64,000 nt of DNA from the NCBI GenBank assembly GCA_015494465.1, contig WGBD01000006.1, positions 10,431 through 74,430 on the forward strand. Direction: 5' to 3'. The DNA comes from Candidatus Omnitrophota bacterium. GTDB lineage: Bacteria > Omnitrophota > Gorgyraeia > S143-82. The position numbers were made by a program, and so were the translations under genes. Shown one piece after another: positions 8,001-64,000 of the stretch. How positions within the stretch are numbered: the first letter of the stretch is position 1; every line of letters begins with the position of its first letter. Below the pieces are notes generated by a model. That model worked only from the letters and a program-made list of their open reading frames with translations, was not told the origin of the DNA and did no database searches.

Positions 8001-10983
8001 TGAAGGAGCGGAGCACATCCACCCTCCCGATCTCTAGGAGGGTCGCACTCCAGGCCCGGACGATCAACTCCTTACTGCCCTCCAGTGCACCGATTTCGTC
8101 TTCCCCCGCTGACCCTAAGGCCTCTGCTATCACCTTCTCATTTATAGCCCGACTCTTGACAAGATAGACCAAAAACTGGATCAAAGACTCTATGCCCCCT
8201 TCCCGTGCCACCCCCAGAAACACCCGAGCCACCGCGCTGGAATCCTCTTTCAGACTGACGGTGAAGGTCTGAGCGACCCCGGGATTATTGGAACTTATCA
8301 GGGCCCGAGAAAGCTCAAAAGAAAATTCGTCTATCTTAGAAGGGCTTGCTTCTCCCCCTCTCTCCCTGGCTAGGTCCATCCAAAACTTCACTATCCCCGT
8401 CGATAACCTGATCAACCTCTGTTTAGAGGCCGACTTTTTCGCAAAGGCCTTCACCCATTCGTCGCGAACAGTCTCAGGGCGAGATGCGAACACCATCGTC
8501 AACCACTCAGTTGCAGTAGGGAGGTCCTCTTTGAGAAGTCCGGGAAAGTCCTTCACCCGGTCCAATATCTCTCCCGCTACCTCGCTCTTCAACAAATCGT
8601 CGACTCCGACAGCCTTTTCCATCCCAAAGAAAGCTTTCGCGATTTCCTGAAATACTCCTTCGTAGGTATTACTGTAACGGATCCTTTCGTCCAACAACAA
8701 ATCAATGGCGTTCGAGAAGGCACTTATCCGGTGCTTCCACTTATCCAGATCCTTTGCGGTGGCGTTATAGCTGACCAGGAACCTGGCCAGATTACTCACC
8801 AGCAGATCTAAGGTCTCCCCCTCCACTTGGGCCCCTAACAAGACCATCATCGCGCTGGCGAATCTAATCCCCTCGAGCTTCTTGTCATCCGATGTCATCT
8901 CCTCCAAGTTAAATCTCCCAAAAGACCTCACCAGCGCACTATACACTGGGACATAGGCAGGTTCCCAGATCACCTCTCCTCTGGGGAAGAAGGGTTGAGC
9001 AACCCTGGTAACCCACAAATAGAACAATTCCGCATCCTTGCAGTCAGATATTGGTGCGGAATCGATCCAATCGGCCAATTTTTCAGGAGAAAGTCTGTCA
9101 ATCGTCTTCTGCCAACGGGGCGTATCCGCCAACAGCTCCTTCAACTCTTCAGCCGACTTCGGGGCTGCCAACTCGACCGTTTTTCCTTTGGACCCAGGGC
9201 GTTTGCCTTTCTTTTTCTTAACCGACAGCCCTAAAAGTGGTAAGAATCCAAGGGAGGGGAACAAGGCAGATCCCAAAACCGCGACCAAAAACAAGACCAC
9301 CCCGTCGCGGTTATCCTTTAGTAATCGAACTGCCCTGAGGAGCACCGTTCGGAGCCTATCGCTCCACTTCCCCGTAACTGGGCCCGCCTTCAGAGGGGTC
9401 TTCCAGGTGATAATCGTGCCCGTCCTCCTTGCCACCTCTCTCAACAACGGCCGAAGCGAGGGCTCTTGCTTCCAGGCCTCAAAAAAGGCATTTACCACCG
9501 AATAGGAGTGCTTCCCTCCCTCTAGACCCAACAGGTCTCTCAACTCTCTCAAGGTCGAGACGAACAGATCTACGGTCTGGTCTTCAGATAAGTAAAGACC
9601 GTCCCCAACTTGGGGGGTGGCGACCATCTCCAGCTCCGCGGTAGGAGCGGTTGGATCGATCTTCCTGACCACTATCAAGGATAACGGCAGGCACCCCGCC
9701 TTGACGGGGAGATTGGCACCGTTCTCAATCCAGGCCCGGGTAAAGATCTCCCCCACCTGTCCGCATAGGCCAATGCGATATTTCTCGTCGAACTCGCTAG
9801 CAATGGCCCCTTTAAAGAGGGGCAAGGGCAGACCTGTCTTCTCCTCGACGGACGAGACCCGCCCTTTGCTTCCGTAGGCTATAACCGTCTTGTCTGCGAG
9901 GTAGTCGTAGAGAATCGCGAGCCATTGGCCTCTTCCAAGCCCGATCACATCCACCAGCTCTAACCTGACATCCTCGGGATACCTCATCCCCAGTTCCCTC
10001 TCCAAGGCCTCTAATACCTCTTTTGAGACCTCCTCTTTGGCAAAACGGATGTCCTGATACCCTACCGGAACGGGAGCCAAACGCAAAAACCCTTGATCGT
10101 CTACCTCCTTGCGCCTCAACCAGGAAAATACCGACTTCATCTTTATCCCACCCAGGGCCCTGACCAACTTCTTCCCCCGAAAGGAGAAGGAGACGGGAGA
10201 GAAGAATCTGTCCAGATAGGCGCGTTTCCACTCGTAAGGGTCGTCGCTAGGATCGTCGTCGTACAACCAGCTACCCAGCACCTCTACACCCCGCAAGGGA
10301 GCCCTCTTGGAGTCCAAAGTCTTCTTCCCCCTCCGAGAGAGCCTCCGCTTGAGGTGATTTGCCAACAGGTACACCGCAAAGGCCTCCCTCAACCTCCTGT
10401 AGGCGGGATCGCTGGATATCTTCTCCTCCAGATCCCTGGCAACCTGAGAGTAGAGGTCTGCGCACTCCCGGGAACCGCCCTTGAACTTGACCTTCAGCTT
10501 CACCTGGGAGACGAAGAACCTGTCTTCCTTTCCCTCCAGATAACCACGAGCCGGCTCCACCCAAAAGAAGGGGAAGTCAACCAATCCCTCCACATCTCCC
10601 GCAACCAGTCTGCGCAGGAGGATCGTCTCGAGGTCCTCCTTAAACTGGTAATCCATCGCCAAGAGCAGCCTCCCCACAGGGTTGTGCAGGAGTTCAGGGG
10701 GAAGCGGAGGATAGCCCGGAGACAGGTTCACCCACAGGATCTCCGGTGGTATCCTGAGGAAGGTCTCAAACAACCTCTCCACCTCTGATCTGGATAGAGA
10801 TAACCCCTCCTTGGGATACAGGATCCGATAGGTCCCCTTTCCTACCTCCAGCCCCAAGGGCACGGAGAAGGAAGGGCTACCCCCCCAACCTGCCCAGGCG
10901 TAGCCCGGGAATAGGGTGGTCGTCCCAAATATAAAGGCCAGGAGGCAAGCCTTTACTCTCGTCCAAAAAGGATCAGACATCAT
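2068..10983 (-). CDS. giant (2971 aa) uncharacterised secreted / membrane-anchored protein; no recognisable catalytic family
   Basis: Uninterrupted 8.9 kb ORF. N-terminal hydrophobic signal/anchor (MMSDPFWTRVKACLLAFIFGTTTLFPGYAWAGW). Internal TM helix near aa 535-560 (VVLFLVAVLGSALFPSLGFLPLLGLSV) followed by the polybasic patch KKKKGKRPGSKGK. Long Leu/Glu/Ala/Arg-rich, probably helical-repeat, region. Two hydrophobic segments near aa 2680-2720 (FALFLLPLTL..., ITPLFFPAVIGLTGWYIW followed by KRLSRRPRR). SD-like GGAGGG about 9 nt upstream of the ATG. Confidence 0.8.
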   Translation of the reverse strand: MMSDPFWTRVKACLLAFIFGTTTLFPGYAWAGWGGSPSFSVPLGLEVGKGTYRILYPKEGLSLSRSEVERLFETFLRIPPEILWVNLSPGYPPLPPELLHNPVGRLLLAMDYQFKEDLETILLRRLVAGDVEGLVDFPFFWVEPARGYLEGKEDRFFVSQVKLKVKFKGGSRECADLYSQVARDLEEKISSDPAYRRLREAFAVYLLANHLKRRLSRRGKKTLDSKRAPLRGVEVLGSWLYDDDPSDDPYEWKRAYLDRFFSPVSFSFRGKKLVRALGGIKMKSVFSWLRRKEVDDQGFLRLAPVPVGYQDIRFAKEEVSKEVLEALERELGMRYPEDVRLELVDVIGLGRGQWLAILYDYLADKTVIAYGSKGRVSSVEEKTGLPLPLFKGAIASEFDEKYRIGLCGQVGEIFTRAWIENGANLPVKAGCLPLSLIVVRKIDPTAPTAELEMVATPQVGDGLYLSEDQTVDLFVSTLRELRDLLGLEGGKHSYSVVNAFFEAWKQEPSLRPLLREVARRTGTIITWKTPLKAGPVTGKWSDRLRTVLLRAVRLLKDNRDGVVLFLVAVLGSALFPSLGFLPLLGLSVKKKKGKRPGSKGKTVELAAPKSAEELKELLADTPRWQKTIDRLSPEKLADWIDSAPISDCKDAELFYLWVTRVAQPFFPRGEVIWEPAYVPVYSALVRSFGRFNLEEMTSDDKKLEGIRFASAMMVLLGAQVEGETLDLLVSNLARFLVSYNATAKDLDKWKHRISAFSNAIDLLLDERIRYSNTYEGVFQEIAKAFFGMEKAVGVDDLLKSEVAGEILDRVKDFPGLLKEDLPTATEWLTMVFASRPETVRDEWVKAFAKKSASKQRLIRLSTGIVKFWMDLARERGGEASPSKIDEFSFELSRALISSNNPGVAQTFTVSLKEDSSAVARVFLGVAREGGIESLIQFLVYLVKSRAINEKVIAEALGSAGEDEIGALEGSKELIVRAWSATLLEIGRVDVLRSFSEPYWQTDPFVCALRFAGLLGEGRFAELNRDLSSLSPDQTNWLIGQIKRLLSHPDYRKYRMLFSCALVLLQGENWVSALKDRLESVDGIAPEEEVFLADLLEAVVYRLDRSGPSEPKGLSEIVDSLKRLSGGFSFTYPGVVEPLLILLWWLDRPEDVKAVIEKTLSSKSAQGIPRSARKSLEGIRSLLKGKMPAILDRKAFSGGVLPSLMLVVALERFDRWDKNEEVKSLGRYADYLLASDLRIFHLYGRAFKAFASAVLASRGLEETEDMEERLDSLAYDLSGPLDLPEEDLPWFVVKGELAPILKGIEDRSAWSRMMVLSYLSFVVGELAVNNKEEFWDGLRTVLSRSLGENLIPAIGLTAIDALEEPTDEVLSRGIIDSKEVKGWLVESLVRYAKTFSFTKPKQWKKRKGELKWLEDSLKRMVEFSRGKASLVSSLLEEVRSRLEAEKVDIAEVPLAGELKDLIASKEGEEEKAREAYGPLIEALNEIAERVAEYTGSMDPDLKIFQDFQQLYLAKAVKHLPSFKEDWLEAWRKTNPLGSSYIVVRFYSGKELIKELNIPNTFPLEVFRHYEVDWGRGNIVDRVELRYHQIKGLPLKASMDLRWLRDFLNNLDQYLSLWGPNLKSPPEVVLPPILAKYLGRPRQRAPDKRGGKHFELHFSKPVNRLPDNFKATRSLLTSLYLELHGDRSVVATDSLLKVADLLKGHEKVIWEGIEKRKPFLNKLKKLGLELGNETKIAVVGAQIGGRYVPVIVWLEPHPLGGQWVPRMVIYGARVEIFDEFGIAKQLLDKVLKVSLVAVPVSKALHVRKTVSWIGLKGGSGKPIVDSIDPIFKITRNWELDYMRKAMYCIAFPEDEKRDYRYYLVLAGLSKSFCLCKVPNGKEDMTFLDMLSYIEKSIPYDGSWWREIKKISFANAAGGKKMLLASSLVEKFFRDYPIDCEWVMLRMPKWTSLSGLWAQPKRVDINKYIVVSRVLELEKEKTIIIDFYEQITPVVGSMILKRGVDLLRDEQRLSYAFSLDFVFSENGMRARLYRKDKDGMSISSFLGWEEVNKFVFGQSGKRELVLSPAKLFPDYVKPVQSGKFVKTRHPVFVGHQSAFSLDFGGYKCGFAKSVYWEGSPLYELLKNGSYTMKGVLEENAGPDIKFTFYLKRENWINWEEVFVILVDKAKNRFRVLSKHPNLDIIYTPGQWRELGESTFMWFKGEDKDKVKIVEYDSWRKTHYQVSMARVEINVRRVLPWWIKKEAIFKVEKKSENKRVIKLIKRQGKLNLILGKVTVESFPDLGKRVVFDSEGNKICEFSMKRKQYHIRIEDLFPRVNDAFPVFVGLPSSREIIERANHIKPSNRLRGIGSLSIGSQSILHITVSSKSKESMGGELARVFDMGAFVFFYPNGGIITFAVPAIDLEMPVARIVKKWKHTSISFLWHLPPKNYNPLRKLSSYKVGPKHHGPPAIVISLYSLLPLAPRDPEKSQEWAQMYLERLRKARDFTKQELEGFYSGILKFFSIYYTGSGMVPVESWPILFRAKMIPGWKASYNFTLLPHYSGIAEFFEDEARVLAYRKFLRDVIVINPRVFSRMIRAGVQPDRFNNLAHYARWRTALCVLSMLTGDEKVNDVLIEYYLNHMQDFEHDARLLWEFEERFVGKGMRPDERELVKNAAEDLSKFYRTLDTRLIRMRLEEGAGTKLNSFALFLLPLTLNGIKYSLLQASLFSITPLFFPAVIGLTGWYIWKRLSRRPRRVLTSNGEGILFKIGSTVSKLYPKYRSQIYRILRSNDSLQRKAENLVLHIISHMGPYGECLRLEALSSLSSRLSPRFLYDLANTRIEDTYYDPFKVLDLLAREGVLGFVSAWSGVPLSYQLLSEKVSRAPGLGSKVLFNLLSFNPERWDRLGIGSRYPFVKEYLSQILKRKGRNLVRKVDYAVNFLWELRYLFTGEERSAMFSVVESWRTRFYPVNRLLQPGKRTRLPVKGGVVFYE

Positions 10984-54717: not shown

Positions 54718-54844
54718 CCCTGCGCCTCCTTAAAGTAAGGTATCGCATCGAGGACCTTCAATTTGGGAGTGCCCATTCTAAACACACCAAGGTGAAAATT
54801 ATACCACCTAACCCAACCCAATTCACAAAAAATCTTTACGAGTA

Positions 54845-54877
54845 CGAGACAGATTCTTTCTGGAAGATTTTGTCTCA
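54845..54877. repeat. palindromic hairpin repeat, copy 1 (GAGACAGATTCTTTCTGGAAGATTTTGTCTCAC)
   Basis: Inverted repeat GAGACA...TGTCTC with a conserved loop. The TGA stop of the thioesterase gene lies inside its GTGAGAC arm (minus strand), and a T-run follows on the minus strand. Same orientation as copies 2-4. Confidence 0.75.
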
Positions 54878-55270
54878 CAAGGTGAGGGTGTGGGTCAGCC
54901 AATCGGGGAGGCGCAGGACCTTTCCCCGGGCATCGGTAAAGACATGGCGGGTGAACCCCACTGCGTTCAGGGTGGATCTGGTGCGCATCTCGTAATCAAA
55001 TTCCAAGTAAAGACCTTTCACCACCCTTGGGATAAGGGAAACATCCACCTCTTGGGGATACCTCACCGGCACCTTGTAGTGGCAGGAGACATCCAACACG
55101 GGAAGAAAGTAGCCCTCCTTCTCCAGATCCGCATAAGTGCGTCCGCACACCTGCTCAAACCACTCGGTCCGGGCAACCTCCATCCAGACCAGATAATTGG
55201 CGTAATACACCACACCCATCTGGTCGGTCTCGGCATAGCGGACCTTTAATCTGGTCTTGAACTCCTGCAT
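54875..55270 (-). CDS. acyl-CoA thioesterase, 4HBT/YbgC-like hot-dog fold
   Basis: 131 aa. YAETDQMGVVYYANYLVWMEVAR, the typical 4HBT N-terminal catalytic region. Confidence 0.75.
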   Translation of the reverse strand: MQEFKTRLKVRYAETDQMGVVYYANYLVWMEVARTEWFEQVCGRTYADLEKEGYFLPVLDVSCHYKVPVRYPQEVDVSLIPRVVKGLYLEFDYEMRTRSTLNAVGFTRHVFTDARGKVLRLPDWLTHTLTL

Positions 55271-55275
55271 ACTGC

Positions 55276-56091
55276 CTAAAAGACCTCTAACACCCTACCG
55301 CTGAAGACCTTCCGCACATCCCCTTCTAAAAAGACCTCTTCTACCTCTCCCTTATCGGAGAACTTCACCTCCACCCCCAAGACCTCTCCTCCTTGCGTCT
55401 GGACATCCACCCGACTGGATTCCTTTACTCCCATCGCCATAAGCGAAAGCAAGGCCGAGGCCACCGACCCGGTCCCGCAGGCGAGGGTTTCGTTCTCAAC
55501 GCCCCTTTCGTAGGTGCGTATGCGGATCTTATCCTTATCCAACACCTTTACGAAGTCCACATTCGTCCCTTTGGGGGCAAAGTAGCCGTGATACCTTATC
55601 TCTCGGCCCATCCCAAAGACATCTATGTTATCGATGTCGTCGACGAACAGTATCGTATGGGGCACTCCCGTATCTACATAATCCACCGTGCACTTTCCCC
55701 AGGAGCAGTCCAGCAATATACCTCTTGCCAGATCCTTGGGTCGGGTCAGGCGCACCTTCGCCCGTTTGCTCTCCGGGAAATACCAGCCCAACACCTCCCC
55801 CGCAAGGGTCTCCAGCAGGATGAATTCCTTACCCAACCTCTCAGAGGCAAACCTCACCGCGCACCGGGCGCCATTCCCGCACATCTCGGCCTCGCTCCCG
55901 TCGGAGTTTACAATCCTCATCCGCACCCGATCTTCCCCGAGGAAACTCAACAGCAACACCCCATCCGCCCCTACTCCGTACTTGGGAGTGCACAGCCTGA
56001 CCACATCCTCAGATGTGATAGGCCTGTCCAACTCCTCTTCCACCAATAGGACGAAGTCGTTGCCCGAGGCCACCATCTTGGTGAACTCCAT
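55276..56091 (-). CDS. dapF: diaminopimelate epimerase
   Basis: 271 aa. FTKMVASGNDFVLL and the second catalytic Cys region CGTGSVA. Confidence 0.9.
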   Translation of the reverse strand: MEFTKMVASGNDFVLLVEEELDRPITSEDVVRLCTPKYGVGADGVLLLSFLGEDRVRMRIVNSDGSEAEMCGNGARCAVRFASERLGKEFILLETLAGEVLGWYFPESKRAKVRLTRPKDLARGILLDCSWGKCTVDYVDTGVPHTILFVDDIDNIDVFGMGREIRYHGYFAPKGTNVDFVKVLDKDKIRIRTYERGVENETLACGTGSVASALLSLMAMGVKESSRVDVQTQGGEVLGVEVKFSDKGEVEEVFLEGDVRKVFSGRVLEVF

Positions 56092-56094
56092 CGT

Positions 56095-56868
56095 CTACTC
56101 CTCCAAATCCTTCAATATCAATTCCGCAACCCGCCTTCCCGAAAGGTACATCGAACCAAAGGTGGGCCCCATTCTCGGCAAGCCATAAACCGCGCTCACC
56201 GACATCCCGCATACATACAACCCGGGGAAGACCTTTCCGGTCTTCTCCACTACCCTGTCCTCGGAGGCCACGATGTGCATCGCCCCTTCCCCGACTATCT
56301 TTACCAATCCACGCTTCTCGAGGGTGGACACCACACTCGCATCGTGCCCGGTCCCATCCACCACCGCCTTCGCCTCGAGGACGATAGGATCCAGGGTACG
56401 CATAGGCCGAGGAAGGTACTGGATCGGGCTCCAGTTTATCACCACACCAGAAACGACCCCATCTTTCAAAACCACATCCTCACAGTAGGTCAGGTTCAAT
56501 ATCTTTACCCCTTGGGATATGGCCTTTGATATGAGGCTTGCGCACACATATTGGGCATCCGCCACGAAAAGCCCGGGCTGGACCTCGTCCACCTCTATCT
56601 CCATCTCGCGCAAGACCTCATCCCCCGGAGCCCGGATGGTCAACTGATTCATCATGTATCCCCCGGACCAGGCACCTCCCCCAGGCGCGTTGTTCCGTTC
56701 AACCACGACCACCTTTTTACCCGCCTTGGCAAGGTAGTAACCGGCCACCAAACCCGAGGGACCTCCCCCTACTATCACCACATCGGAAACTATCGCGGAT
56801 CTCAAGAACTCGTAAAACCTATCGACGATAGCCAAAGACACTTCCTTCTCTCCATAAGAGACAAACAT
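56095..56868 (-). CDS. thi4: Thi4-family thiazole synthase (FAD/NAD-binding)
   Basis: 257 aa. Dinucleotide fold DVVIVGGGPSGLVAGYYLAKAG, NAPGGGAWSGG. Confidence 0.7.
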   Translation of the reverse strand: MFVSYGEKEVSLAIVDRFYEFLRSAIVSDVVIVGGGPSGLVAGYYLAKAGKKVVVVERNNAPGGGAWSGGYMMNQLTIRAPGDEVLREMEIEVDEVQPGLFVADAQYVCASLISKAISQGVKILNLTYCEDVVLKDGVVSGVVINWSPIQYLPRPMRTLDPIVLEAKAVVDGTGHDASVVSTLEKRGLVKIVGEGAMHIVASEDRVVEKTGKVFPGLYVCGMSVSAVYGLPRMGPTFGSMYLSGRRVAELILKDLEE

Positions 56869-56886
56869 CTCTATCCTCCCCTAACA

Positions 56887-57153
56887 TCATCCAAAACTGT
56901 ACACCTTCCTAACCGGCTCCAATACCTTCCACCGGCACTTAAGCCCCTTGGGGAAGGTCACCAGGTCTCCTTTTCCTATCTCCACATTCCCCTCGTCGGT
57001 CTCAACTATAACCTTCCCCTCGTAGAAGTAGCAGGTCTCGGCCTCGTCGTAAGTCCAGTCGAACTCTGACACCGGACAGGTCCAGGTGGGCCAGGACTCC
57101 ACTCCAAGTTTCTTCAGTTCCTCTTCGGTTGGTTTGCGCACCTCTATCTTCAT
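56887..57153 (-). CDS. small cupin-domain protein (cupin_3 / DUF861-like)
   Basis: 88 aa beta-rich protein; ...FYEGKVIVETDEGNVEIGKGDLVTFPKG... resembles the two conserved cupin strands. Confidence 0.5.
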   Translation of the reverse strand: MKIEVRKPTEEELKKLGVESWPTWTCPVSEFDWTYDEAETCYFYEGKVIVETDEGNVEIGKGDLVTFPKGLKCRWKVLEPVRKVYSFG

Positions 57154-57974
57154 ACCTTACCTCCTTTTTGTTTTGGCACCGGTATGTACTCCACCGCCGG
57201 TTGATATCTGACCGGTTGGGGATAGAGCATCATCAACTCGTAAATCTCCGTCGGCAACTCGTTGGATACATTGAGTCCCAAGGCCTTTGCCTCTTCGTAG
57301 GTTATTGGATAGTCGTGCGTCCACCTGCCCTCGGAAAGGATCCTGGCCAGCTCCTCTGCCCTATCCTCAGAGTAACGATCGGACAATATGGACTTCACCG
57401 CCTTGCGCATCTGCCTTATCGCTTTCTCCGCCATGTCCGCCATAATCAGGCTCTCGTCCTCTATCTCGTCTACCTTCTTCTCCTCCCGCAGGCGCAACAC
57501 TGAGGCAGCGGGGTACTTGCCCAACTGAGGATCCACCGGCCCAAGGACCGCATACTCGCTCATCACTATCTCGTCGCAGGCAAGGGCGATGAGCGTCCCA
57601 CCGGACATGGCGTAATGGGGGACAAAGGCGGTGACCTTCGCGGGGTGTTTCCTCAGGGCGTAGGCTATCTGAAGGGAACTCAACACCAGTCCCCCCGGGG
57701 TATGCAAGACTATGTCTATGGGCACATCCGGATCGGTCATCTGTATGGCCCGGATAACCTCCTCAGAATCGTTTACGTCTATGTACCTCATCACCGGGAA
57801 CCCCAGAAAACGCATAGTCTCCTCCCGGTGCACGAGTAGAATTACCCGCGATCCGCGCTTCTTCTCTATCAGAGATATCATCCTCCTGCGGGCGGATTCC
57901 AGAACCCACTGTTGGAATATCGGTTGAAATGCAGACAGCAAAAAAACCAGCCAGAACAGGTCAAATACGGTCAT
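57150..57974 (-). CDS. membrane-anchored Clp-fold serine protease (SDH / NfeD / SppA-like family)
   Basis: 274 aa. N-terminal TM helix; ClpP/crotonase-like core HTPGGLVLSSLQIAYALRKH and YAMSGGTLIALACDEIVMSEYAVLGPVDPQ. Confidence 0.6.
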   Translation of the reverse strand: MTVFDLFWLVFLLSAFQPIFQQWVLESARRRMISLIEKKRGSRVILLVHREETMRFLGFPVMRYIDVNDSEEVIRAIQMTDPDVPIDIVLHTPGGLVLSSLQIAYALRKHPAKVTAFVPHYAMSGGTLIALACDEIVMSEYAVLGPVDPQLGKYPAASVLRLREEKKVDEIEDESLIMADMAEKAIRQMRKAVKSILSDRYSEDRAEELARILSEGRWTHDYPITYEEAKALGLNVSNELPTEIYELMMLYPQPVRYQPAVEYIPVPKQKGGKV

Positions 57975-57996
57975 ACTCCTCCCCTCTCGTAAAACC

Positions 57997-58653
57997 TCAC
58001 CGGGCCATCTCCAGAACGATTATCTTCTTGCCTACCATTTCCAGCGAGGAAATATCCAATTCGGATTTACCCGCACGCACCACCTCAATCCCCTCTGCCA
58101 GAGACAGGAAGTCGTCCAGCGTCTTAATCGGGAAACCCAACTTCGGCGTCTTGTAGTGCATCGGCACGAACACTTTCGGTGCGGGCAACTGCTGAACGAG
58201 CTCCATGGCCTCCCGCGGACCTATGGTGTAGGTCCCCCCTATTGGCAGCAGTACCACATCCACCTGCGCCAGTTCGCGGATCAACTTCGGATCCACCCAT
58301 CCCTGATCCCCAAGGTGGGCCACCGAACGACTCCCGTCCGAGACCACGAACACCACATTGCTCCCCCGCAGGCGCCCGCCTTCCGGGTCGTGGTGGGAGG
58401 CAATCCCCTTTATCTTCAACCCACCCACCTCGTATTCGCCGGGGCTGTCAAACACCTGAAAATCTCCCTTCACCTCCGCAACGCCCGCGTGATCGTCGTG
58501 CTGGTGGGACAGCAGAACCACATCAGCAGATACATTCACCCTGTCGTACCCCACCGCACCCTCAAAGGCGCGCCACTTGTAGGGATCAAACACTATCCTT
58601 TTACCGTCGGCCTCCAACAAAAAACAGGCGTGGGCAAGATAGGTCAGCCTCAT
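57997..58653 (-). CDS. MBL-fold metallo-hydrolase
   Basis: 218 aa. HxHxDH motif SHQHDDHAG. Confidence 0.75.
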   Translation of the reverse strand: MRLTYLAHACFLLEADGKRIVFDPYKWRAFEGAVGYDRVNVSADVVLLSHQHDDHAGVAEVKGDFQVFDSPGEYEVGGLKIKGIASHHDPEGGRLRGSNVVFVVSDGSRSVAHLGDQGWVDPKLIRELAQVDVVLLPIGGTYTIGPREAMELVQQLPAPKVFVPMHYKTPKLGFPIKTLDDFLSLAEGIEVVRAGKSELDISSLEMVGKKIIVLEMAR

Positions 58654-59393
58654 CCCTCATCACCTCCCTGTAACACCCGTCTGGGCAGGTACTCCTCGTT
58701 AACATTCATCAGGGAAAGAAACGCGTTCTTCACCACATCCACCTTCGGATTGTTGCGCTTTAGATATTTTAGCACATCTTTTATCTGCTCCCGACGATTA
58801 TCTACCGCCCAGGGGCAGGGAGGCAGTTCAGGATACTTCCTTTGGCGGGCGAGCCTCCTCAACTCCTCCTCCCTCAAGTAGACGAGAGGCCGTATCACGG
58901 TTATCTCCCCGGAAAAGAACTCCTGTCGGGGGCACATCGTAGATATCGTCGCCTGAAAGAAGACATTCATCAGGAAGGTCTGCACCACATCGTCCATGTT
59001 GTGCCCCAAGGCAACCTTATTGCACCCGTGGGCCTTGGCGGAGAAAAAAAGGGCCTTCCTGCGATACCAACTGCATAGGAAACACTTATCCTTTTCGGCA
59101 GAGGAGAGATCCAACCCCGCAAGGGCCTCCCTATTTACCTCGTACTCAACCCCCGAACGAGACAGGAATTCTTCCACCACCTGGCTGGCCTCCGGCAGGA
59201 CCTCTATGTGGCAGGCGAACAACTCAAACCTCACCGGACTGCGTCGGGCCTTTTCCTTAAGGAATTCCAAAAGGGCAAGGCTGTCCTTTCCCCCGGAGAC
59301 TCCCACGAGGATGCGATCGCCCTCCTCTATAAGCCCAAAATCACCGATCGCCCTGCCGACTCTTCTGGATAGGTAGTAGAATAAATCCTTCAC
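58650..59393 (-). CDS. PP-loop ATPase, TtcA-like tRNA 2-thiocytidine biosynthesis protein
   Basis: 247 aa. PP-loop VGVSGGKDSLALLEFL and Cys motifs (CFLCSWYRR; CPWAVD) typical of the TtcA family. Too short for TilS. Confidence 0.6.
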   Translation of the reverse strand: MKDLFYYLSRRVGRAIGDFGLIEEGDRILVGVSGGKDSLALLEFLKEKARRSPVRFELFACHIEVLPEASQVVEEFLSRSGVEYEVNREALAGLDLSSAEKDKCFLCSWYRRKALFFSAKAHGCNKVALGHNMDDVVQTFLMNVFFQATISTMCPRQEFFSGEITVIRPLVYLREEELRRLARQRKYPELPPCPWAVDNRREQIKDVLKYLKRNNPKVDVVKNAFLSLMNVNEEYLPRRVLQGGDEG

Positions 59394-59405
59394 CTTAGGC
59401 GCAGA

Positions 59406-60131
59406 TTAGAGAAGCGCAAGCATATCCTTCACCGCCTTACGCATCCCGAAGAGGACTGCGTAAGAGACTATAGAATGGCCGATGTTGAGTTCGTAGATCT
59501 GGGGGATTTCCGCGATAGGGCGGACATTGTCGTAGTGCAGGCCGTGACCCGCGTTGACCCTCAAGCCCAACTTGTCGTGAGCGAACTCCGCAGACCTTAT
59601 TATCCTGCGCAGGTGGGACTGCCTTTCTCTCTTCGTCTTTGCATCCGAGTAGTGGCCGGTGTGTATCTCCACTATACCCACCCCGATGTCCCTGCTGGCC
59701 TTCATCTGATCCAGATCCGGTTCTATAAACAGACTCACCTCTATCCCTGCCGACTGAAGGCGCCTCACCACCCGCTGAAGGCGCCTGCCCAGCCCTATCA
59801 CATCCAGCCCCCCCTCGGTGGTAAGTTCCCTCCTGCGCTCGGGAACGAGCGTGGCCTGATGGGGTTTCAGGCGCACCGCCACATCCACTATGTCCCGAGC
59901 GATGGACATCTCCAAATTGAACCGTATGGATATCGCGGACTTGATCCTGAAGACATCCTCGTCGTTTATGTGCCTGCGATCCTCCCGCAGGTGGGCGACG
60001 ATGGAATCTGCTCCCGCCCTTTCACAAAGCACCGCTGCGAAGGCAGGGTCGGGATAGGTCGTGCCCCTTGCCTGCCGAATCGTGGCGACATGGTCGACAT
60101 TTACCCCCAACTTCTTCCTTTTCTGCCTCAT
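59406..60131 (-). CDS. pdxJ: pyridoxine 5'-phosphate synthase
   Basis: 241 aa. [17 protein letters not shown] and TTEGGLDV regions are PdxJ hallmarks. Confidence 0.92.
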
Positions 60132-60343
60132 ATGTTTAGTTTCCCCTCCTGATACAACTTCACGAAGTAGCCAATAGATCGGTTATAGGTCTTCTCCGCA
60201 AAGTCCGGGAAGTAGCAGGCCGGCAACTCCCCCATGGAACGGTGATAGGCAATGCACTCACAACAGAGCCCCTTCTTACTGCACGGCTCGTAAGAACAAT
60301 TGCACCGGGCGAGGTTCCTATCCCTGTTGGGACAAGAGGCCAT
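60128..60343 (-). CDS. small cysteine-rich protein of unknown function
   Basis: 71 aa with a dense Cys array, [31 protein letters not shown]...PAC (9 Cys). Overlaps pdxJ (4 nt) and def (26 nt); no family assigned. Confidence 0.5.
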
Positions 60344-60839
60344 ACTCCTCCTCCAATCTCTTAAGGGCCTTCAGAGAATCCTCTTTCATAGGTCCGCTTG
60401 CCCTGTCTATTATCAGCTTCCCGTCCAGATGATCTATCTCGTGCTGGATAACCCTTGCCAGAAGGCCTTCCCCCTGCCAGACCTTTTCTTTCCCGCTTAC
60501 ATCAAGGGCCTTAAACTTTATGTAACCCACTTTTCGTCTAACCGGCACATACACCCCCGGCAGGGAAAGACAGCCCTCCTCCATCTCCTCCTCTTTTCCA
60601 CCCACCTCCAATATCACCGGATTTATCAACTTAAGCAGGCCCTTTCCCACATCCACCACGATAATCCTCTTGTTCACCCCCACCTGCGGGGCAGCCAGAC
60701 CTATCCCGTCGTACTTGTACATGGCCCGAGCCATCTCCGAGAGGAACCGGGCAAGGTCCTCGTCGAACGACTCCACCTCGTCAGACCGCCTTCGCAACAG
60801 CGGATCCGGATAATGCACTATCTTAAGCATCAGATTCAC
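60318..60839 (-). CDS. def: peptide deformylase
   Basis: 173 aa. [26 protein letters not shown] motifs. Confidence 0.93.
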
Positions 60840-61191
60840 CCCTTATTATTATCGGCTCGGGCAGTTTGCCCCCGGAGATCTCCTCTTCACTGGCCCACCA
60901 ATAGGACAAAACGATTATCTCGTCCCCCACCTGTGCGGTGCGGGCAGCCGGGCCGTTCAGACAGACCACGCCCGAGCCCCTCTTACCGGGTATGGCGTAG
61001 GTCTCTATACGGGAGCCGGTGCTGAGGTTGAGGACCTCCACCTTCTCGTAGGGCAGGATGTTCGCCCTCTCCAGCAGGTCCTCGTCGAGCGTAATACTGC
61101 CCTCGTAATAGAGTTCCGTTTCGGTTACCCTTATCCTGTGTATCTTTGACTTCAACACGCATCGATTCATAATCACACCCCAACCGCTCAT
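60823..61191 (-). CDS. panD: aspartate 1-decarboxylase
   Basis: Probable start MNRCVLKSKIHRIRVTE (internal Met at about 61170). Self-processing site YEGSITLD and the CLNGPAAR region. Confidence 0.88.
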   Translation of the reverse strand: MSGWGVIMNRCVLKSKIHRIRVTETELYYEGSITLDEDLLERANILPYEKVEVLNLSTGSRIETYAIPGKRGSGVVCLNGPAARTAQVGDEIIVLSYWWASEEEISGGKLPEPIIIRGESDA

Positions 61192-61257
61192 TCCCTAACT
61201 CAAGATTTTACTACAAAAAGCCAAAAATCGGCAGGATATTATCCATCCCATCCGCCT

Positions 61258-61293
61258 TATGAGACGGATTCTTCCAGGAAGATTTCGTCTCAC
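61258..61293. repeat. palindromic hairpin repeat, copy 2 (TATGAGACGGATTCTTCCAGGAAGATTTCGTCTCAC)
   Basis: Stem GAGACG/CGTCTC with the conserved loop. Lies 18 nt 3' of the AAA-ATPase stop and upstream of panD. Confidence 0.8.
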
Positions 61294-61311
61294 ACGATCG
61301 GGTTAACCCGG

Positions 61312-62673
61312 TCAATTTGGGGAGAAATAATTGGTAATCTCCGACTGGAGGTCAAAGACAAGGCAGGCCTTAAGGCTATAATCCTTAACTTTTGCCTCTT
61401 TGCGCAGGTCGTAATTTACCAGAAGGGCCTTCTGAGGCCGATACTTGGCTAAGAATGAGTAATAACTTCGTGATAACGATATCTCTTTTAATCTCTTGGC
61501 CTTTACTTCTATAGAGGTCAATTTCCCATCACCGCTTCTCACTACAAAGTCGAGTTCGGCCTTTTGCAAAGTTCTCCAATAGTGCAAAGTCGTCGGGGCC
61601 TTGATTATCTTTAACAATTCACTCGCTACTGCATTTTCAAATAGAGCACCTTTATCATCTCGCCTCTCGAGATTCTCAAAACGCCCAAGGGCAAAGTTCC
61701 GCAGGCCTGTATCTATAAAGTAAACTTTAGGGGTCTTGATAAGTTCCTTTTTCCTGTTGGTAAAAAACGGCGGAACCAGAGAAATAACGAAGGTATTTAC
61801 CAGATCGTTCAGATACTGTTCCACCGTCTTCACCTGCAATCCAACTTCCCCTGCCAACTGAGAAACATTTAACAGGCTTCCTGCCTGGATTGCCAACAAA
61901 GACACCAACTTGTTAAAGGCCATTATATTTCTGACTTTAAGAAACCCCAAAATGTCCTTCTCTAAATAACTGGTATATAATTCTTCTAAGATGGAACTCT
62001 TCTTCTCGGAGCTCTGTTCCACCACTACCCGGGGATAACCTCCAAAAACTACAAACTCACTTAATATGCGAATCAACCTTTCTGCATCGTACTCTATGAG
62101 ATCTTCTCCCTTTTCTACCACCTCAAATAAGTCCTTATCAACATACCTCAGATACTCGTTGGCGGAGAGGGGCATAACCTGAAAAACCTTTTTACGCCCG
62201 GTGAGGGCCTCGTGGACCTTGCTCTTTATTTCCAGAGATGAAGACCCAGTCAAAACGAATTTTACCCCAAGATTCAAATCGTAAATTCCTTTGATAAAAA
62301 CCCCTGCGTTTTCAAGTCGTTGGACCTCATCGATGAAAAAATACATAACCTCGCTTTCCTTTTTACGGGATTTAATAAAGGAAATAACATCACCCTGATC
62401 CTGAAAGAAGGTTAGGTCTCTTACGAGGTCCAGATTGAAACGGAATATATTGCTCGGATTGATCCCTTTCTTTTCCAGTAAATACCTCTCTATCTGATCC
62501 AGAATGGTGGTCTTACCTACTTGACGAGGGCCAACGATTACCGTGATCTCTTTTTCATCCAGATGCTCTATGATGGAGTCTACTATATCCCTCTTAATCA
62601 TACCTAATCCTCTCCCAATCCAATATTTTTTACCCTCTATTACAAGAATAACCTGTATTAAAATTGTAGTCAA
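61312..62673 (-). CDS. AAA+ superfamily ATPase with C-terminal DUF4143 (COG1373-type)
   Basis: Walker A TVIVGPRQVGKTTIL, Walker B MYFFIDEVQ. The long C-terminal region matches the DUF4143 arrangement. Probable start at the internal Met MIKRDIVDSI (~62601). Confidence 0.75.
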   Translation of the reverse strand: MTTILIQVILVIEGKKYWIGRGLGMIKRDIVDSIIEHLDEKEITVIVGPRQVGKTTILDQIERYLLEKKGINPSNIFRFNLDLVRDLTFFQDQGDVISFIKSRKKESEVMYFFIDEVQRLENAGVFIKGIYDLNLGVKFVLTGSSSLEIKSKVHEALTGRKKVFQVMPLSANEYLRYVDKDLFEVVEKGEDLIEYDAERLIRILSEFVVFGGYPRVVVEQSSEKKSSILEELYTSYLEKDILGFLKVRNIMAFNKLVSLLAIQAGSLLNVSQLAGEVGLQVKTVEQYLNDLVNTFVISLVPPFFTNRKKELIKTPKVYFIDTGLRNFALGRFENLERRDDKGALFENAVASELLKIIKAPTTLHYWRTLQKAELDFVVRSGDGKLTSIEVKAKRLKEISLSRSYYSFLAKYRPQKALLVNYDLRKEAKVKDYSLKACLVFDLQSEITNYFSPN

Positions 62674-62703
62674 CTGAAATTTTGATTAACTTTGTATGTA
62701 ATA

Positions 62704-62739
62704 TATGAGACGGATTCTTCCAGAAAGACTCCGTCTCAC
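62704..62739. repeat. palindromic hairpin repeat, copy 3 (TATGAGACGGATTCTTCCAGAAAGACTCCGTCTCAC)
   Basis: Perfect 9-bp stem TGAGACGGA/TCCGTCTCA. The relE/parE TGA stop lies inside its GTGAGAC arm. Flanking 12-mer TCGGGGAGGCGC is shared with copy 1. Confidence 0.8.
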
Positions 62740-63020
62740 TTCTCGGGGAGGCGCCTTATCACCGTCTGGTAAACCTCTTTTCTGTGACCTATCTTTAGGA
62801 TTACCACAAACTCACCCTCTACCCGATAAATAACTCTATAGTCCCCTACCCTTAACTTGCGATACCCGCGCAATCCCCTACGCAACGGTTCACCATACAG
62901 GTCGGGATCCACCAAAATCCGCTTTTCTATTGCAGATTTGATCCTATCCCTCATATTCCGAGGGATATTAGGAAGGTCGCACTTTTTTACATCCGGATGG
63001 TAAACCGGAGTAAAGCCCAT
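62736..63020 (-). CDS. type II toxin, RelE/ParE family
   Basis: 94 aa. ...YRVIYRVEGEFVVILKIGHRKEVY is the RelE/ParE C-terminal signature. Abuts the antitoxin gene (stop-start adjacent). Confidence 0.8.
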   Translation of the reverse strand: MGFTPVYHPDVKKCDLPNIPRNMRDRIKSAIEKRILVDPDLYGEPLRRGLRGYRKLRVGDYRVIYRVEGEFVVILKIGHRKEVYQTVIRRLPEK

Positions 63021-63296
63021 CTACCCCCACACTTCCTCATGCGACAATCCAGAATCCAATGAAAAGGAGTTATCCCTCTTCCTTGCAATCTCATTCCAAT
63101 AAGAATCCTCCTGCAACTCCACAGCCTGTTTCAATAATTCCCTAGCCACAAGAGACATAGACAACCCGGACTTACGCGCCATTCTGCGGATAGATTCGTA
63201 CAACTCCGGCTCAAGGACGACATTCAAGCGTGCGTTTTTGGTGGGCATAGTATCACCTCCAAAACGGAGTGTATCACAAGTGATGACCCGGGTCAA
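63021..63296 (-). CDS. ribbon-helix-helix (CopG/RHH-type) antitoxin
   Basis: KNARLNVVLEPELYESIRRMARKSGLSMSLVARELL is a beta-strand plus two helices, the RHH fold. Probable start at the internal Met MPTKNARL (~63248). Confidence 0.7.
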   Translation of the reverse strand: MTRVITCDTLRFGGDTMPTKNARLNVVLEPELYESIRRMARKSGLSMSLVARELLKQAVELQEDSYWNEIARKRDNSFSLDSGLSHEEVWG

Positions 63297-63305
63297 TCTT
63301 TACCC

Positions 63306-63340
63306 TGTGAGACGGATTCTTCCAGAAAGATTTCGTTTCA
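63306..63340. repeat. palindromic hairpin repeat, copy 4 (degenerate: TGTGAGACGGATTCTTCCAGAAAGATTTCGTTTCA)
   Basis: Same loop as copies 2-3. The right arm is mutated (CGTTTCA versus CGTCTCA). Ends 4 nt from the TGA stop of the 81-aa ORF. Confidence 0.7.
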
Positions 63341-63344
63341 TTTG

Positions 63345-63590
63345 TCATTTGTTGGATGCTCGTGTATCGTTTTGGGGAAGTTCTTCTTTGCTCACCTCGG
63401 TTCCATCGGGCATCAGATATCGAATCTTACCATCTCTAAGGTAGACCACCGGGACCCCTAACTTAAGATGCCTCTCTATAGCCTCTTTAATAGCCTCATT
63501 CATTATCCTTTCCAATGTCTTACCATCAAAATCGTTTGGCACCTCATTCATCACAATCCTCCTTAAATCTTTCCAAATAGACTTTATCAA
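63345..63590 (-). CDS. hypothetical small protein (81 aa), partner of the upstream zeta-like ATPase gene
   Basis: ORF overlaps the upstream gene by 47 nt in the track. The internal Met MNEVPND (~63551) would give an 8-nt overlap. No recognisable family. Confidence 0.4.
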   Translation of the reverse strand: MIKSIWKDLRRIVMNEVPNDFDGKTLERIMNEAIKEAIERHLKLGVPVVYLRDGKIRYLMPDGTEVSKEELPQNDTRASNK

Positions 63591-64000
63591 CTACCTCCCC
63601 GTCGGATGCTATAAACCGAGCTTTACTTCCACCGTTATCAAAGAGATACCATCTATCGGCCAATAGCCTGTACTTATACCAAAAGTTGCACCTTGCCCGA
63701 TAATATCTTCTTATAACCACATCCTCAGGGATATAATGTCCTCCCAGCTGGGATCTATACTTAATCCGTTCAATACACACGCTAACATCCGCCACATCCA
63801 AAAAGAAAATCTTTATTACATAACCCCTTCTCTTGAGGTCCTCTATCACTTTAGCCCATATTTTCCCTGCCAGAGTCGTCTCAAAGCCAAAATTCTCACC
63901 TTTTTTCATCAACGAATGTATGCGCTGGAGCATTAATCTCCCAGCCTCTATTTGGGCATAGGAAGGCTCAAAGGGTGATAGTCCAACCGCTATCGCATCC
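63544..64000 (-). CDS. zeta-toxin / COG4185-like P-loop kinase-fold protein, C-terminal part (5' end beyond window)
   Basis: The frame stays open to the window edge; the extension reads DAIAVGLSPFEPSYAQIEAGRLMLQRIHSLMKKGENFGFETTLAG. The FETTL(S/A)G motif and following layout resemble zeta-toxin/AAA_33-type ATPases. Confidence 0.5.
   Translation of the reverse strand, partial: DAIAVGLSPFEPSYAQIEAGRLMLQRIHSLMKKGENFGFETTLAGKIWAKVIEDLKRRGYVIKIFFLDVADVSVCIERIKYRSQLGGHYIPEDVVIRRYYRARCNFWYKYRLLADRWYLFDNGGSKARFIASDGEVVDKVYLERFKEDCDE

What the first reader, a model, noticed from the sequence alone, without database searches (positions are those of the whole stretch)
54845..63340. Family of ~33-bp palindromic hairpin repeats, each abutting or overlapping a gene stop codon
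Four same-orientation copies of GAGAC(G/A)GATTCTT(C/T)C(C/T)(A/G)GAAAGA(T/C)T(T/C)(C/T)GTCTCAC sit at 54845-54877, 61258-61293, 62704-62739 and 63306-63340. Copy 4 is degenerate.

Each lies immediately 3' of a minus-strand gene. The TGA stops of the thioesterase and of relE/parE fall inside the GTGAGAC arm (...TTG TGA GAC, ...AAG TGA GAC). The other two copies lie 18 nt and 4 nt past a stop.

Copies 1 and 3 also share the 12-mer TCGGGGAGGCGC. On the minus strand it encodes the C-terminal RLP(D/E) of both unrelated proteins, so the element may extend into, and have remodelled, the gene 3' ends.

Three of the four copies delimit the accessory cassettes at 61-64 kb. Candidate roles are REP/MITE-like mobile hairpins, terminator or mRNA-stabilising stem-loops, or recombination sites resembling integron attC (attC-like, but shorter than canonical attC).
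Basis: seen in the sequence. Interest (0 to 1): 0.65.

Follow-up and report, generated by a model that had tools for sequence, protein, structure and literature searches.

The report
Dispersed 33-bp palindrome behind stop codons
A 33-base palindromic DNA repeat, found only in one small group of uncultured bacteria, sits directly behind (and often supplies) the stop codons of unrelated genes, changes copy number between strains and marks the joints where small toxin-antitoxin gene cassettes come and go; it is most likely a new family of REP-type interspersed repeats, not an integron site or a terminator.

Summary
Four co-oriented copies of a 33-bp imperfect palindrome lie at window 54845-54877, 61260-61292, 62706-62738 and 63308-63340. 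In gene orientation it reads TGAGACRAAATCTTYCWGRAAGAATCYGTCTCA. A fifth copy lies about 150 bp beyond the window end.

I recovered 21 copies at nine or more loci in close relatives (about 90-94% protein identity). None was found in 34 kb of an outgroup genome (73-76% identity) or in the viral scan; the scans of species-representative genomes and JGI metagenomes gave one true copy among 17 hits.

- Six of nine upstream genes end in, or directly against, the element's TGA.
- Orthologous sites hold 1, 2 or 3 tandem copies, often with 31-nt spacers.
- The RHH-ParE cassette plus one element is absent from a relative.
- Synteny breaks at the array upstream of panD.
- A degenerate subfamily is spread over five loci.
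- Assemblies break inside the element.
- It has no U-tract, no attC core (RYYYAAC/GTTRRRY) and no extrahelical bases. No integrase or transposase lies within the 64-kb window or the 10 kb to its right.
- The shared 12-mer is ordinary coding sequence.

Best reading: a lineage-specific REP/BIME-like repeat that spreads at the DNA level and serves as portable homology for recombination. A minimal cassette-recombination site is not excluded.

The parts
54845..54877 (-). Element copy a, behind the 4HBT thioesterase. Its first three bases (gene orientation) are the TGA stop.
   Evidence: 56.7 bits. The orthologous site in relatives holds two tandem copies.
54837..54848 (.). Perfect 6-nt tandem duplication (TACGAG x2 on the + strand) straddling the distal border of copy a.
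   Evidence: Absent from the orthologous copy in L024.
54875..55270 (-). 4HBT thioesterase gene whose stop lies in copy a.
   Evidence: C-termini of orthologues.
61260..61292 (-). Element copy b, between the AAA_14/DUF4143 cassette and panD. Its centre CTTCC|TGGAAG looks like a hybrid of two relatives' copies.
   Evidence: 61.9 bits. Flank comparison with L035 and L024/L027.
61220..61232 (-). Separate canonical terminator-like hairpin followed by TTTTTGT, 28 nt downstream of copy b.
   Evidence: Conserved in L024/L027.
61312..62601 (-). AAA_14/DUF4143 ATPase cassette (429 aa), bounded by copies c and b.
   Evidence: Its own promoter-like site is at 62645-62673.
62706..62738 (-). Element copy c, behind ParE. 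The TGA stop of ParE is its first three bases.
   Evidence: 61.3 bits.
62736..63248 (-). RHH antitoxin + ParE toxin cassette, bounded by copies d and c. Absent from a relative.
   Evidence: L034 has 68aa|element|AAA with no RHH-ParE.
63268..63296 (-). Promoter-like site (TTGACC-17-TACACT) of the RHH-ParE cassette, 11 nt downstream of copy d. The same element-promoter linkage is seen in L039 and, truncated, in L038.
63308..63340 (-). Element copy d, behind the 68-aa gene (partner of the Zeta toxin).
   Evidence: 61.7 bits.
63338..63351 (.). Perfect 7-nt tandem duplication (TCATTTG x2 on the + strand) at the proximal border of copy d. This explains the '4 nt past the stop': in relative L034 the stop is the element's own TGA.
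63345..64000 (-). 68-aa gene and the Zeta-toxin gene (cut by the window end). This is the first cassette of the array. The fifth element copy and the DedA gene lie just beyond the window.

Best explanation
The element is a lineage-specific interspersed palindromic repeat of the REP/BIME kind, a non-coding and non-autonomous DNA repeat.

Shown:
- It is a 33-bp imperfect palindrome with a fixed orientation relative to the upstream gene.
- It sits at many unrelated gene ends, both housekeeping and accessory.
- It forms tandem arrays of 1-3 units, often with a 64-nt period.
- Its copy number differs between close strains.
- A degenerate subfamily has been copied to at least five loci.
- A cassette present/absent difference and a synteny break map to it.

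Inferred:
- Copies spread at the DNA level, probably as a single-stranded hairpin handled by a trans-acting enzyme. A RAYT/IS200-type tyrosine transposase is the obvious candidate but was not found. Gene conversion is an alternative.
- In this very compact genome copies survive only in the few nucleotides between a stop codon and the next promoter. That is why they abut stops and lend them AAA/AAG-TGA.
- Once dispersed, the copies act as portable homology. Unequal or ectopic recombination and hairpin-induced replication errors add or remove units, delete or insert the toxin-antitoxin and ATPase cassettes lying between copies, and rearrange the chromosome.
- The hairpin transcribed at mRNA 3' ends may protect or insulate transcripts, as REPs do. 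That would be a secondary effect.
For: - Repeat family, far beyond chance, with a fixed orientation.
- 21 copies at nine or more loci in relatives. They sit behind DedA, the 68-aa gene, ParE, the AAA ATPase, 4HBT, a radical-SAM gene, a CitMHS transporter and an acetyltransferase, and upstream of panD. At least three of these loci have housekeeping genes on both sides, so the element is not confined to cassette arrays.
- Copy-number polymorphism at orthologous sites. DedA|Zeta holds 1 (window genome), 2 (L033) or 3 (L020). 4HBT|tpiA holds 1 or 2.
- The subfamily ...GGAAAAAACTGTCTCA carries two shared stem-weakening changes and occurs at five loci. That implies copying, not independent mutation.
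- Contigs from several assemblies start or end inside the element, as expected of a multi-copy repeat.
- Narrow distribution. None in 34 kb of an outgroup genome (L021, L022, L040). One true extra copy among 185,579 species genomes, none in JGI metagenomes, none in viral contigs.
- Tandem REP/REPIN arrays with non-conserved spacers are described for classical REPs (PMC3337134).
- Not a terminator: no U-tract, and a separate canonical terminator follows copy b.
- Recombination role. The RHH-ParE cassette plus one element is missing in L034. The radical-SAM|panD junction in L027/L028 replaces the AAA|panD junction in the window. Copy b shares its left flank and left centre with the AAA copy of L035, and its right flank and right centre with copy p2 of L024.
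Against: - No transposase or RAYT could be looked for genome-wide. None lies in the 64-kb window or the 10 kb to its right.
- The genome-wide copy number is unknown. I saw 5 copies in 74 kb of the source strain, at only two regions.
- Classical REP doublets (REPINs) are inverted, whereas these arrays are direct.
- Six of nine upstream genes stop within 0-3 nt of the element. That is tighter than expected for random intergenic insertion and needs the compaction argument or a target preference.
- Three diverged RHH-ParE cassettes each carry an element just upstream of their promoter, in three different contexts. This fits a cassette-linked site better than a free-living repeat.
- Covariation is too weak to prove that the hairpin is selected: one compensatory pair, not above the shuffled controls.
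Confidence: 0.55

Rival explanations
1. The element is the recombination site of a cassette-shuffling system. It would work like an integron attC site, or like a lox/dif-type core site (13-bp inverted arms around a 7-bp asymmetric centre). A recombinase encoded elsewhere would integrate and excise small self-promoted cassettes (Zeta, RHH-ParE, AAA_14, HicAB) at it.
For: - Array DedA|el|Zeta+68aa|el|RHH-ParE|el|AAA|el|panD, with all genes co-oriented and each site at a stop codon.
- One cassette plus one site is absent in a relative.
- RHH-ParE homologues (74% identity) in three different contexts each keep an element just upstream of their promoter: 11 nt away twice, fused once. In L038 that copy is old and diverged, while other copies in the same contig are consensus.
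- Copy b looks like a crossover product, switching between the two central positions.
- G:T pairs favour the strand opposite the genes, 1.76 against 0.62 per element. Nivina et al. report the same for attC bottom strands, 1.24 against 0.39 (PMC5027507).
- The 33-bp size equals a loxP/FRT-type core (own knowledge).
- dif modules in Acinetobacter show that toxin-antitoxin modules can be bounded by short recombination sites (PMC6449649).
Against: - No RYYYAAC/GTTRRRY core, no AAC triplet, no extrahelical bases, no second box pair. The length is about half the shortest attC.
- No integrase in the window or the 10 kb to its right. The array is bounded by DedA and a 4813-aa gene.
- Copies also sit between housekeeping genes with only 24-64-nt spacers between them (4HBT|tpiA, radical-SAM|panD).
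- A stem-degraded subfamily has spread without cassettes.
- The cassette indel is not clean at the element. The 14-21 nt after the element are unrelated in the two genomes.
- Every cassette has its own promoter.
- The sampling of cassette contexts was biased, because I searched with ParE.
Confidence: 0.2
2. The element is primarily an RNA signal at mRNA 3' ends, and its similarity between loci reflects selection on that function. Candidate roles are a barrier to 3' exonucleases, a U-tract-independent terminator or insulator between transcription units, or a stop-codon-proximal hairpin that tunes termination of translation.
For: - It always lies between a stop codon and the next promoter, and is always oriented with the upstream gene.
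- Stable RNA hairpins are predicted for copies b and c on the mRNA strand, -20 to -22 kcal/mol.
- REPs within about 15 nt of a stop are reported to affect translation and mRNA decay in E. coli (own knowledge; I did not retrieve the paper).
Against: - On the mRNA strand copies a and d/e fold poorly, at -9.2 and -5.7 kcal/mol with z-scores of -1.4 and +0.5. The antisense strand folds better in these copies.
- 79.6% of cells are paired on the sense strand against 86.3% on the antisense strand.
- No U-tract, and a separate terminator follows copy b.
- Tandem arrays, the spread of a stem-weakened subfamily and near-identity between loci need a DNA-level copying process in any case.
Confidence: 0.15
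3. Chance similarity or an assembly artefact.
For: None beyond the short length of the motif.
Against: Zero matches in shuffles. The same element appears in independent assemblies from NCBI, ENA and Logan and in several related genomes.
Confidence: 0.01

Closest known systems
REP / BIME (palindromic units) and REPIN-RAYT systems of Enterobacteria and Pseudomonas
   Same: A short (20-40 nt) imperfect palindrome. Lineage-specific sequence. Located at gene 3' ends. Occurs as singletons and as tandem arrays with non-conserved spacers. Shows subfamily structure and copy-number differences between strains. Could act as recombination substrate and as an mRNA 3' hairpin (PMC3337134; own knowledge for BIMEs).
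   Different: The arrays are direct, not inverted doublets. There is no GTAG-type 5' tetranucleotide; the flanks are AAA/GTG and TAA. The element overlaps stop codons. No RAYT has been identified. The genome-wide copy number is unknown.
Integron attC sites in sedentary chromosomal arrays (VCR-type repeats, CALINs)
   Same: Co-oriented cassettes, each followed by a similar palindromic site that starts at or in the stop codon. Toxin-antitoxin cassettes. A cassette present/absent difference between genomes. More G:T pairs on the strand opposite the genes.
   Different: 33 bp against 57-141 bp. No RYYYAAC/GTTRRRY core, AAC triplet, extrahelical bases, or R and L boxes with a central spacer. No intI/attI nearby. 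Copies also lie between housekeeping genes. All cassettes carry their own promoters.
Acinetobacter pdif sites and dif modules (XerC/XerD-dependent)
   Same: Small modules, including toxin-antitoxin pairs, bounded by short palindromic sites and shuffled between contexts (PMC6449649).
   Different: pdif is 28 bp (11-6-11), with the inner parts conserved and the outer parts variable, and it flanks modules in inverted orientation on plasmids. Here the site is 33 bp with its outer six bases the most conserved, and all copies are direct and chromosomal.
MIRU-type intergenic minisatellites of mycobacteria (own knowledge, not checked here)
   Same: Tandem intergenic units in fixed orientation whose ends overlap the stop codon of the upstream gene. 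Strain-to-strain differences in unit number.
   Different: MIRUs are not palindromes and are 46-101 bp. Here a 33-bp palindrome alternates with a fast-evolving spacer of about 31 nt.
Intrinsic (Rho-independent) terminators
   Same: A hairpin just after a gene.
   Different: The stem is AT-rich (36-47% GC), no U-tract follows, and the same sequence recurs at unrelated genes. A canonical terminator is present separately after copy b.

Membership tests
Integron attC | Conserved R''/R' cores 5'-RYYYAAC ... GTTRRRY-3', with the AAC triplet as the cleavage point. | tested here: not met
   The alignment of 17 copies shows TGAGAC...GTCTCA ends. No AAC/GTT cores lie in or beside the element. Definition taken from PMC5027507.
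Integron attC | A folded strand with R and L boxes, an unpaired central spacer, extrahelical bases and a variable terminal structure; length 57-141 bp. | tested here: not met
   The element is 33 bp. It forms one 15-pair stem with a symmetric 1x1 to 3x3 internal mismatch and a 3-5 nt loop. No bulged bases.
Integron attC | An intI integrase and attI next to the array. | tested here: not met
   Upstream of the array lie DedA and a 4813-aa beta-helix protein. The remaining 61 kb of the window is housekeeping genes. The rest of the genome could not be searched, so a CALIN-like state is not excluded.
Integron attC | Bottom-strand folding advantage (more G:T pairs on the strand opposite the genes). 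| tested here: met
   1.76 G:T per element on the antisense strand against 0.62 on the sense strand, n=21. The copies are related, so these are few independent events.
REP / REPIN-RAYT | A short imperfect palindrome (about 20-40 nt) that is extragenic. | tested here: met
   33 bp with 10-13 Watson-Crick pairs of 15. It always lies between a stop codon and the next promoter, overlapping only the stop.
REP / REPIN-RAYT | Many dispersed copies per genome. | tested here: inconclusive
   5 copies in 74 kb of the source strain, 5 in 20 kb of L027, and nine or more distinct loci in the lineage. Contigs break inside the element. Whole genomes could not be scanned.
REP / REPIN-RAYT | A lineage-specific sequence. 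| tested here: met
   Absent from 34 kb of an outgroup genome at 73-76% protein identity. One true hit in 185,579 species genomes. None in JGI metagenomes or viral contigs.
REP / REPIN-RAYT | A cognate RAYT (Y1 HUH transposase) gene flanked by the repeats. | not testable with these tools
   Only about 74 kb of the source genome was reachable, and no such gene lies there.
REP / REPIN-RAYT | Inverted doublets that form a long hairpin (REPIN). | tested here: not met
   All neighbouring copies are direct. The model scores 57-70 bits in one orientation against 28-48 bits in the other.
Intrinsic terminator | A G+C-rich stem followed immediately by a U-tract. | tested here: not met
   The terminator scan does not pick up any copy. 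The tails read TAAGG, TATAT, CAGGG and so on.
dif / pdif (Xer) site | 28 bp (11-6-11) with conserved inner arms; modules flanked by inverted sites. | tested here: not met
   33 bp, with the outer hexamers most conserved and all copies direct. Definition from PMC6449649.
CRISPR array | Several identical repeats with unique spacers of similar length. | tested here: not met
   1-3 copies per locus, and the repeats differ by 2-6 bases. The 'spacers' range from 24 nt to whole genes and share their ends (TAAC...GGAGAAA). Nearby cas genes were not tested beyond the gene tables, which list none.

The most novel reading that the evidence does not exclude
The 33-bp palindrome is the minimal recombination site of an undescribed cassette-shuffling system in an uncultured (possibly Omnitrophota-related) lineage. 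A recombinase encoded elsewhere would exchange self-promoted toxin-antitoxin and ATPase cassettes at a site half the size of any attC, with the crossover at the centre of the palindrome. That would be an integron-like or dif-module-like platform that arose independently. The short tandem duplications at element borders would then be its footprints.
Probability: 0.15. Interest if true: 0.8.

Novelty: new member of a known kind. Interest (0 to 1): 0.4.

Why it matters
If the best reading holds, this is a previously undescribed REP-like repeat family in a poorly known, very compact genome from an uncultured lineage. The sample names suggest deep-sea vent deposits, but that is an inference.

It is a clean small example of how a short palindrome can lodge in the only free space of a compact genome, directly behind stop codons, and then drive change. 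The changes seen here are copy-number differences, gain or loss of toxin-antitoxin cassettes, and synteny breaks.

It also has a practical side. The element breaks short-read assemblies of these genomes and may misplace small contigs into the wrong bins; one copy sits on a 1.7-kb contig binned as Dojkabacteria.

If the cassette-site reading were right instead, it would add a new, much smaller kind of cassette recombination site.

Tried and rejected
- **Rfam (gathering scores) on the whole window:** no family.
- **Exact-pattern scans:** 185,579 species genomes gave 5 hits, of which 4 were chance and 1 a true copy on a 1.7-kb contig. JGI metagenomes gave 12 hits, all chance. Viral contigs gave none.
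- **Covariation:** one compensatory pair (A-U to G-C). The statistics are no better than shuffled controls because the copies are too closely related. I do not claim that a selected structure is proven.
- **Selenocysteine or readthrough signal:** TGA and TAA are in frame, 33 nt apart. Rejected because the proteins end at native length, and two genes stop before the element with their own codon.
- **Small ORF starting at the overlapping ATGA:** rejected, because there is no conserved stop or length.
- **DNA-uptake-sequence pairs:** rejected, because no single arms occur outside the palindromes in 64 kb.
- **CRISPR-like mini-arrays:** rejected (see the membership test).
- **12-mer as part of the element:** rejected.
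- **Centre 'flip':** CTTTCTGGAAG and CTTCCAGAAAG are exact reverse complements while the outer arms keep their orientation. I noted this but could not tell inversion by template switching from point mutations.
- **Paper search for the accession numbers:** nothing found. The phylum is only a guess, from Omnitrophota names among the 60-66% hits.


Full report
**1. Observation**

The four copies are real. A 32-mer consensus finds 61261, 62707 and 63309 with 1-2 mismatches, and no shuffle gave a match. GAGAC-N21-GTCTC adds 54846.

A covariance model built later scores the four copies at 57-62 bits on the minus (gene) strand against 33-44 bits on the other. It finds nothing else in the 64 kb.

The cores are 54845-54877 (a), 61260-61292 (b), 62706-62738 (c) and 63308-63340 (d). 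Read in gene orientation the element is TGAGACRAAATCTTYCWGRAAGAATCYGTCTCA. It forms a 15-pair stem with one constant internal mismatch and a 3-5 nt loop.

The TGA stops of the 4HBT thioesterase and of ParE are the first three bases of the element. The 68-aa gene and the AAA_14/DUF4143 ATPase stop 4 nt and 19 nt before it.

**2. Source and surroundings**

ParE is encoded on a 782-kb contig of MAG GCA_027052805.1. The window differs from that record at two positions in 11.3 kb.

Every called gene in the window is on the minus strand. GC skew of the + strand is -0.18. The rest of the window is housekeeping: ribosomal proteins, DnaB, BamA, Lpx genes, ClpC, RuvB, SecDF, IleS. There is no recombinase or transposase in the window or in the 10 kb to its right.

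That flank holds a fifth copy, identical to d, whose TGA is the stop of a DedA/VTT gene. The layout is:

- DedA | e | Zeta + 68aa | d | RHH-ParE | c | AAA_14 | b | panD
- about 6 kb further on: dapF-4HBT | a | tpiA

Each cassette has its own promoter-like site just after the preceding element.

The genome is so compact that the only intergenic gaps over 100 nt in about 74 kb are those holding the element. A nominal 100-nt gap between pdxJ and the next gene disappears with the longer gene start listed for that gene in the relatives.

**3. Distribution**

Exact-pattern scans gave one true extra copy among 185,579 species genomes. It lies on a 1.7-kb contig binned as Dojkabacteria and is identical to copy a. 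The scans gave only chance hits in JGI metagenomes and nothing in viral contigs.

Looking up near-identical proteins gave contigs of relatives at about 90-94% protein identity:

| Locus | Arrangement |
|---|---|
| L020 | DedA, then three tandem copies, then Zeta |
| L033 | DedA, then two copies |
| L024, L027 | 4HBT, then two copies, then tpiA |
| L027, L028 | radical-SAM gene (TAA abutting TGAGAC), three copies, panD |
| L034, L035 | 68aa \| element \| AAA_14 \| element, 31 nt, element |
| L038 | CitMHS (TAA abutting), two copies, HicBA |

In total there are 21 copies at nine or more loci. All are in the same orientation relative to the upstream gene.

Six of nine upstream genes stop within 0-3 nt of the element. 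Many contigs begin or end inside it.

An outgroup genome (DedA 73%, TpiA 76% identity) shows no copy in 34 kb.

A lower-GC contig from the same sample (L039) carries a diverged version between ParE and HicAB cassettes.

**4. Dynamics**

- **Copy number.** Orthologous sites hold different numbers of units: 1, 2 or 3 behind DedA, and 1 or 2 behind 4HBT. L033 looks like L020 minus one unit, with a hybrid element.
- **Spacers.** Four spacers are exactly 31 nt and share their ends (TAAC/TAAG ... GGAGAAA), which gives a 64-nt period.
- **Subfamily.** A subfamily with two stem-weakening changes (...GGAAAAAACTG...) occurs at five loci. The sequence must therefore have been copied between loci.
- **Cassette indel.** The RHH-ParE cassette plus one element is absent between the 68-aa gene and the AAA gene in L034. 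The 14-21 nt just after the element are unrelated in the two genomes, so the difference is not clean at the element.
- **Synteny break.** Upstream of panD the window has the AAA cassette, while L027/L028 have gltBD and the radical-SAM gene. The break lies in the element array.
- **Copy b.** It shares its left flank and left centre (CTTCC) with the AAA copy of L035. It shares its right flank and right centre (TGGAAG) with copy p2 of L024. This is consistent with a crossover at the centre.
- **Border duplications.** Five perfect tandem duplications of 6-10 nt straddle element borders. Each is missing from the orthologous copy of a relative where an orthologous copy was available (four of the five; none for L004). 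One of them explains why copy d lies 4 nt past the stop. I cannot explain these duplications.

**5. Structure and strand**

Covariation is weak: one pair switches A-U to G-C, and the totals do not exceed the shuffled controls.

The strand opposite the genes pairs better, 86.3% against 79.6% of cells. It has 1.76 G:T pairs per element against 0.62.

On the mRNA strand, copies a and d/e hardly fold better than shuffled sequence.

This pattern is what Nivina et al. describe for attC bottom strands. It rests on few independent mutations, though, and could reflect the strong strand bias of this genome.

**6. Gene ends**

DedA and ParE end at the same alignment position as homologues without the element. 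The element therefore did not truncate or extend them. It supplies TGA and often the preceding Lys codon.

The 12-mer shared by the thioesterase and ParE is 25 nt and 4 nt from the element. In the thioesterase it encodes the conserved RLPD. It has drifted at two positions in the orthologue while the protein is unchanged. It is not part of the element.

**7. What it is**

It is not a terminator. There is no U-tract, and a canonical terminator sits separately after copy b in both lineages.

It is not an attC site by any defining sequence or structural feature, and it is not a pdif site.

The best fit is a lineage-specific REP/BIME-like interspersed palindrome. It is a short imperfect palindrome at gene ends, it occurs as singletons and as tandem arrays with fast-evolving spacers, and it shows subfamily spread, strain polymorphism and assembly breaks. 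Tandem arrays with non-conserved spacers are known for REPINs.

It differs from classical REPs in three ways. Its arrays are direct, it overlaps stop codons, and no RAYT has been found. I could not search the genome for one.

The tight position behind stops is most simply explained by compaction, since only the few nucleotides between a stop and the next promoter are free. A target preference is also possible.

**8. The rival I cannot dismiss**

RHH-ParE homologues in three unrelated contexts each keep an element just upstream of their promoter: 11 nt away in the window and in L039, and fused and decayed in L038.

Together with the cassette indel and the hybrid copy b, this fits a cassette-linked recombination site. 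Against it are the housekeeping loci, the cassette-free arrays, the spread of a degraded subfamily, the absence of a nearby recombinase and my biased sampling.

I put it at about 0.2. I put the more specific version, an undescribed minimal cassette-recombination system, at about 0.15.

**9. Verdict**

The REP-like role is supported. The terminator role and attC membership are not supported, and neither is gene-end remodelling through the 12-mer.
- It is a new member of a known kind of element, of moderate interest.
- A whole-genome scan for copies and for a cognate transposase or recombinase would settle the matter.

Noticed in passing
window 63338-63351 and 54837-54848; L006 8862-8877; L004 about 1524-1543; L020 about 644-663: Five perfect tandem duplications of 6-10 nt straddle element borders: TCATTTG x2, TACGAG x2, CGTCTCAT x2, ATAATGAGAC x2 and ATGTGAGACA x2. 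Four of the five are absent from the orthologous copy in a relative; no orthologue was available for the L004 copy. They may be hairpin-induced slippage or footprints of a cleavage and repair process. Unexplained.
   Followed up: partly
Element centre, e.g. window 54856-54866 against L024 6544-6554: The 11-nt centre occurs in two forms, CTTTCTGGAAG and CTTCCAGAAAG. They are exact reverse complements, while the slightly asymmetric outer arms keep their orientation, even between orthologous copies. Copy b has the symmetric hybrid CTTCCTGGAAG. This suggests loop inversion by template switching or recombination at the centre.
   Followed up: partly
L039 749-794, 1410-1455, 2621-2668: A lower-GC contig from the same sample carries a diverged version of the element, plus a conserved segment of about 35 nt upstream of it (CTCAAGTTCACTATGGTAAAAT..GTTTCAC). 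The three copies lie between ParE and HicAB cassettes. The family therefore exists in at least one more organism, in a longer form.
   Followed up: partly
window 62608 and 62632: The window differs from the NCBI record of the same MAG at only two positions in 11.3 kb. Both lie in the 5' untranslated region of the AAA_14/DUF4143 gene.
   Followed up: no
whole window: Every called gene is on the minus strand, and GC skew of the + strand is -0.18. The coding strand is strongly purine-loaded, and gene packing is extremely tight.
   Followed up: no
window 2068-10983; L006 1-8269: Two giant genes. One is a 2971-aa ORF inside the window. The other is a 4813-aa protein with polysaccharide-lyase, NosD and beta-helix domains, just to the right of the window next to the DedA gene.
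   Followed up: no
L004 (contig JALVLD010000054.1, 1743 bp): A contig binned as Candidatus Dojkabacteria carries a copy identical to window copy a. It is probably a mis-binned fragment of the same lineage. The repeat seems to fragment assemblies and may misplace short contigs.
   Followed up: no
window 63268-63296; L038 1089-1117; L039 830-858: The promoter region of the RHH-ParE cassettes (TTGACM-17-TACACT) is conserved across three cassettes that share 74% identity. It holds an inverted repeat (ATCAC-TT-GTGAT), which is likely the operator for the RHH antitoxin.
   Followed up: no
window 60128-60343: A small Cys-rich DUF6485 gene (71 aa) lies between def and pdxJ and is conserved in all relatives.
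   Followed up: no
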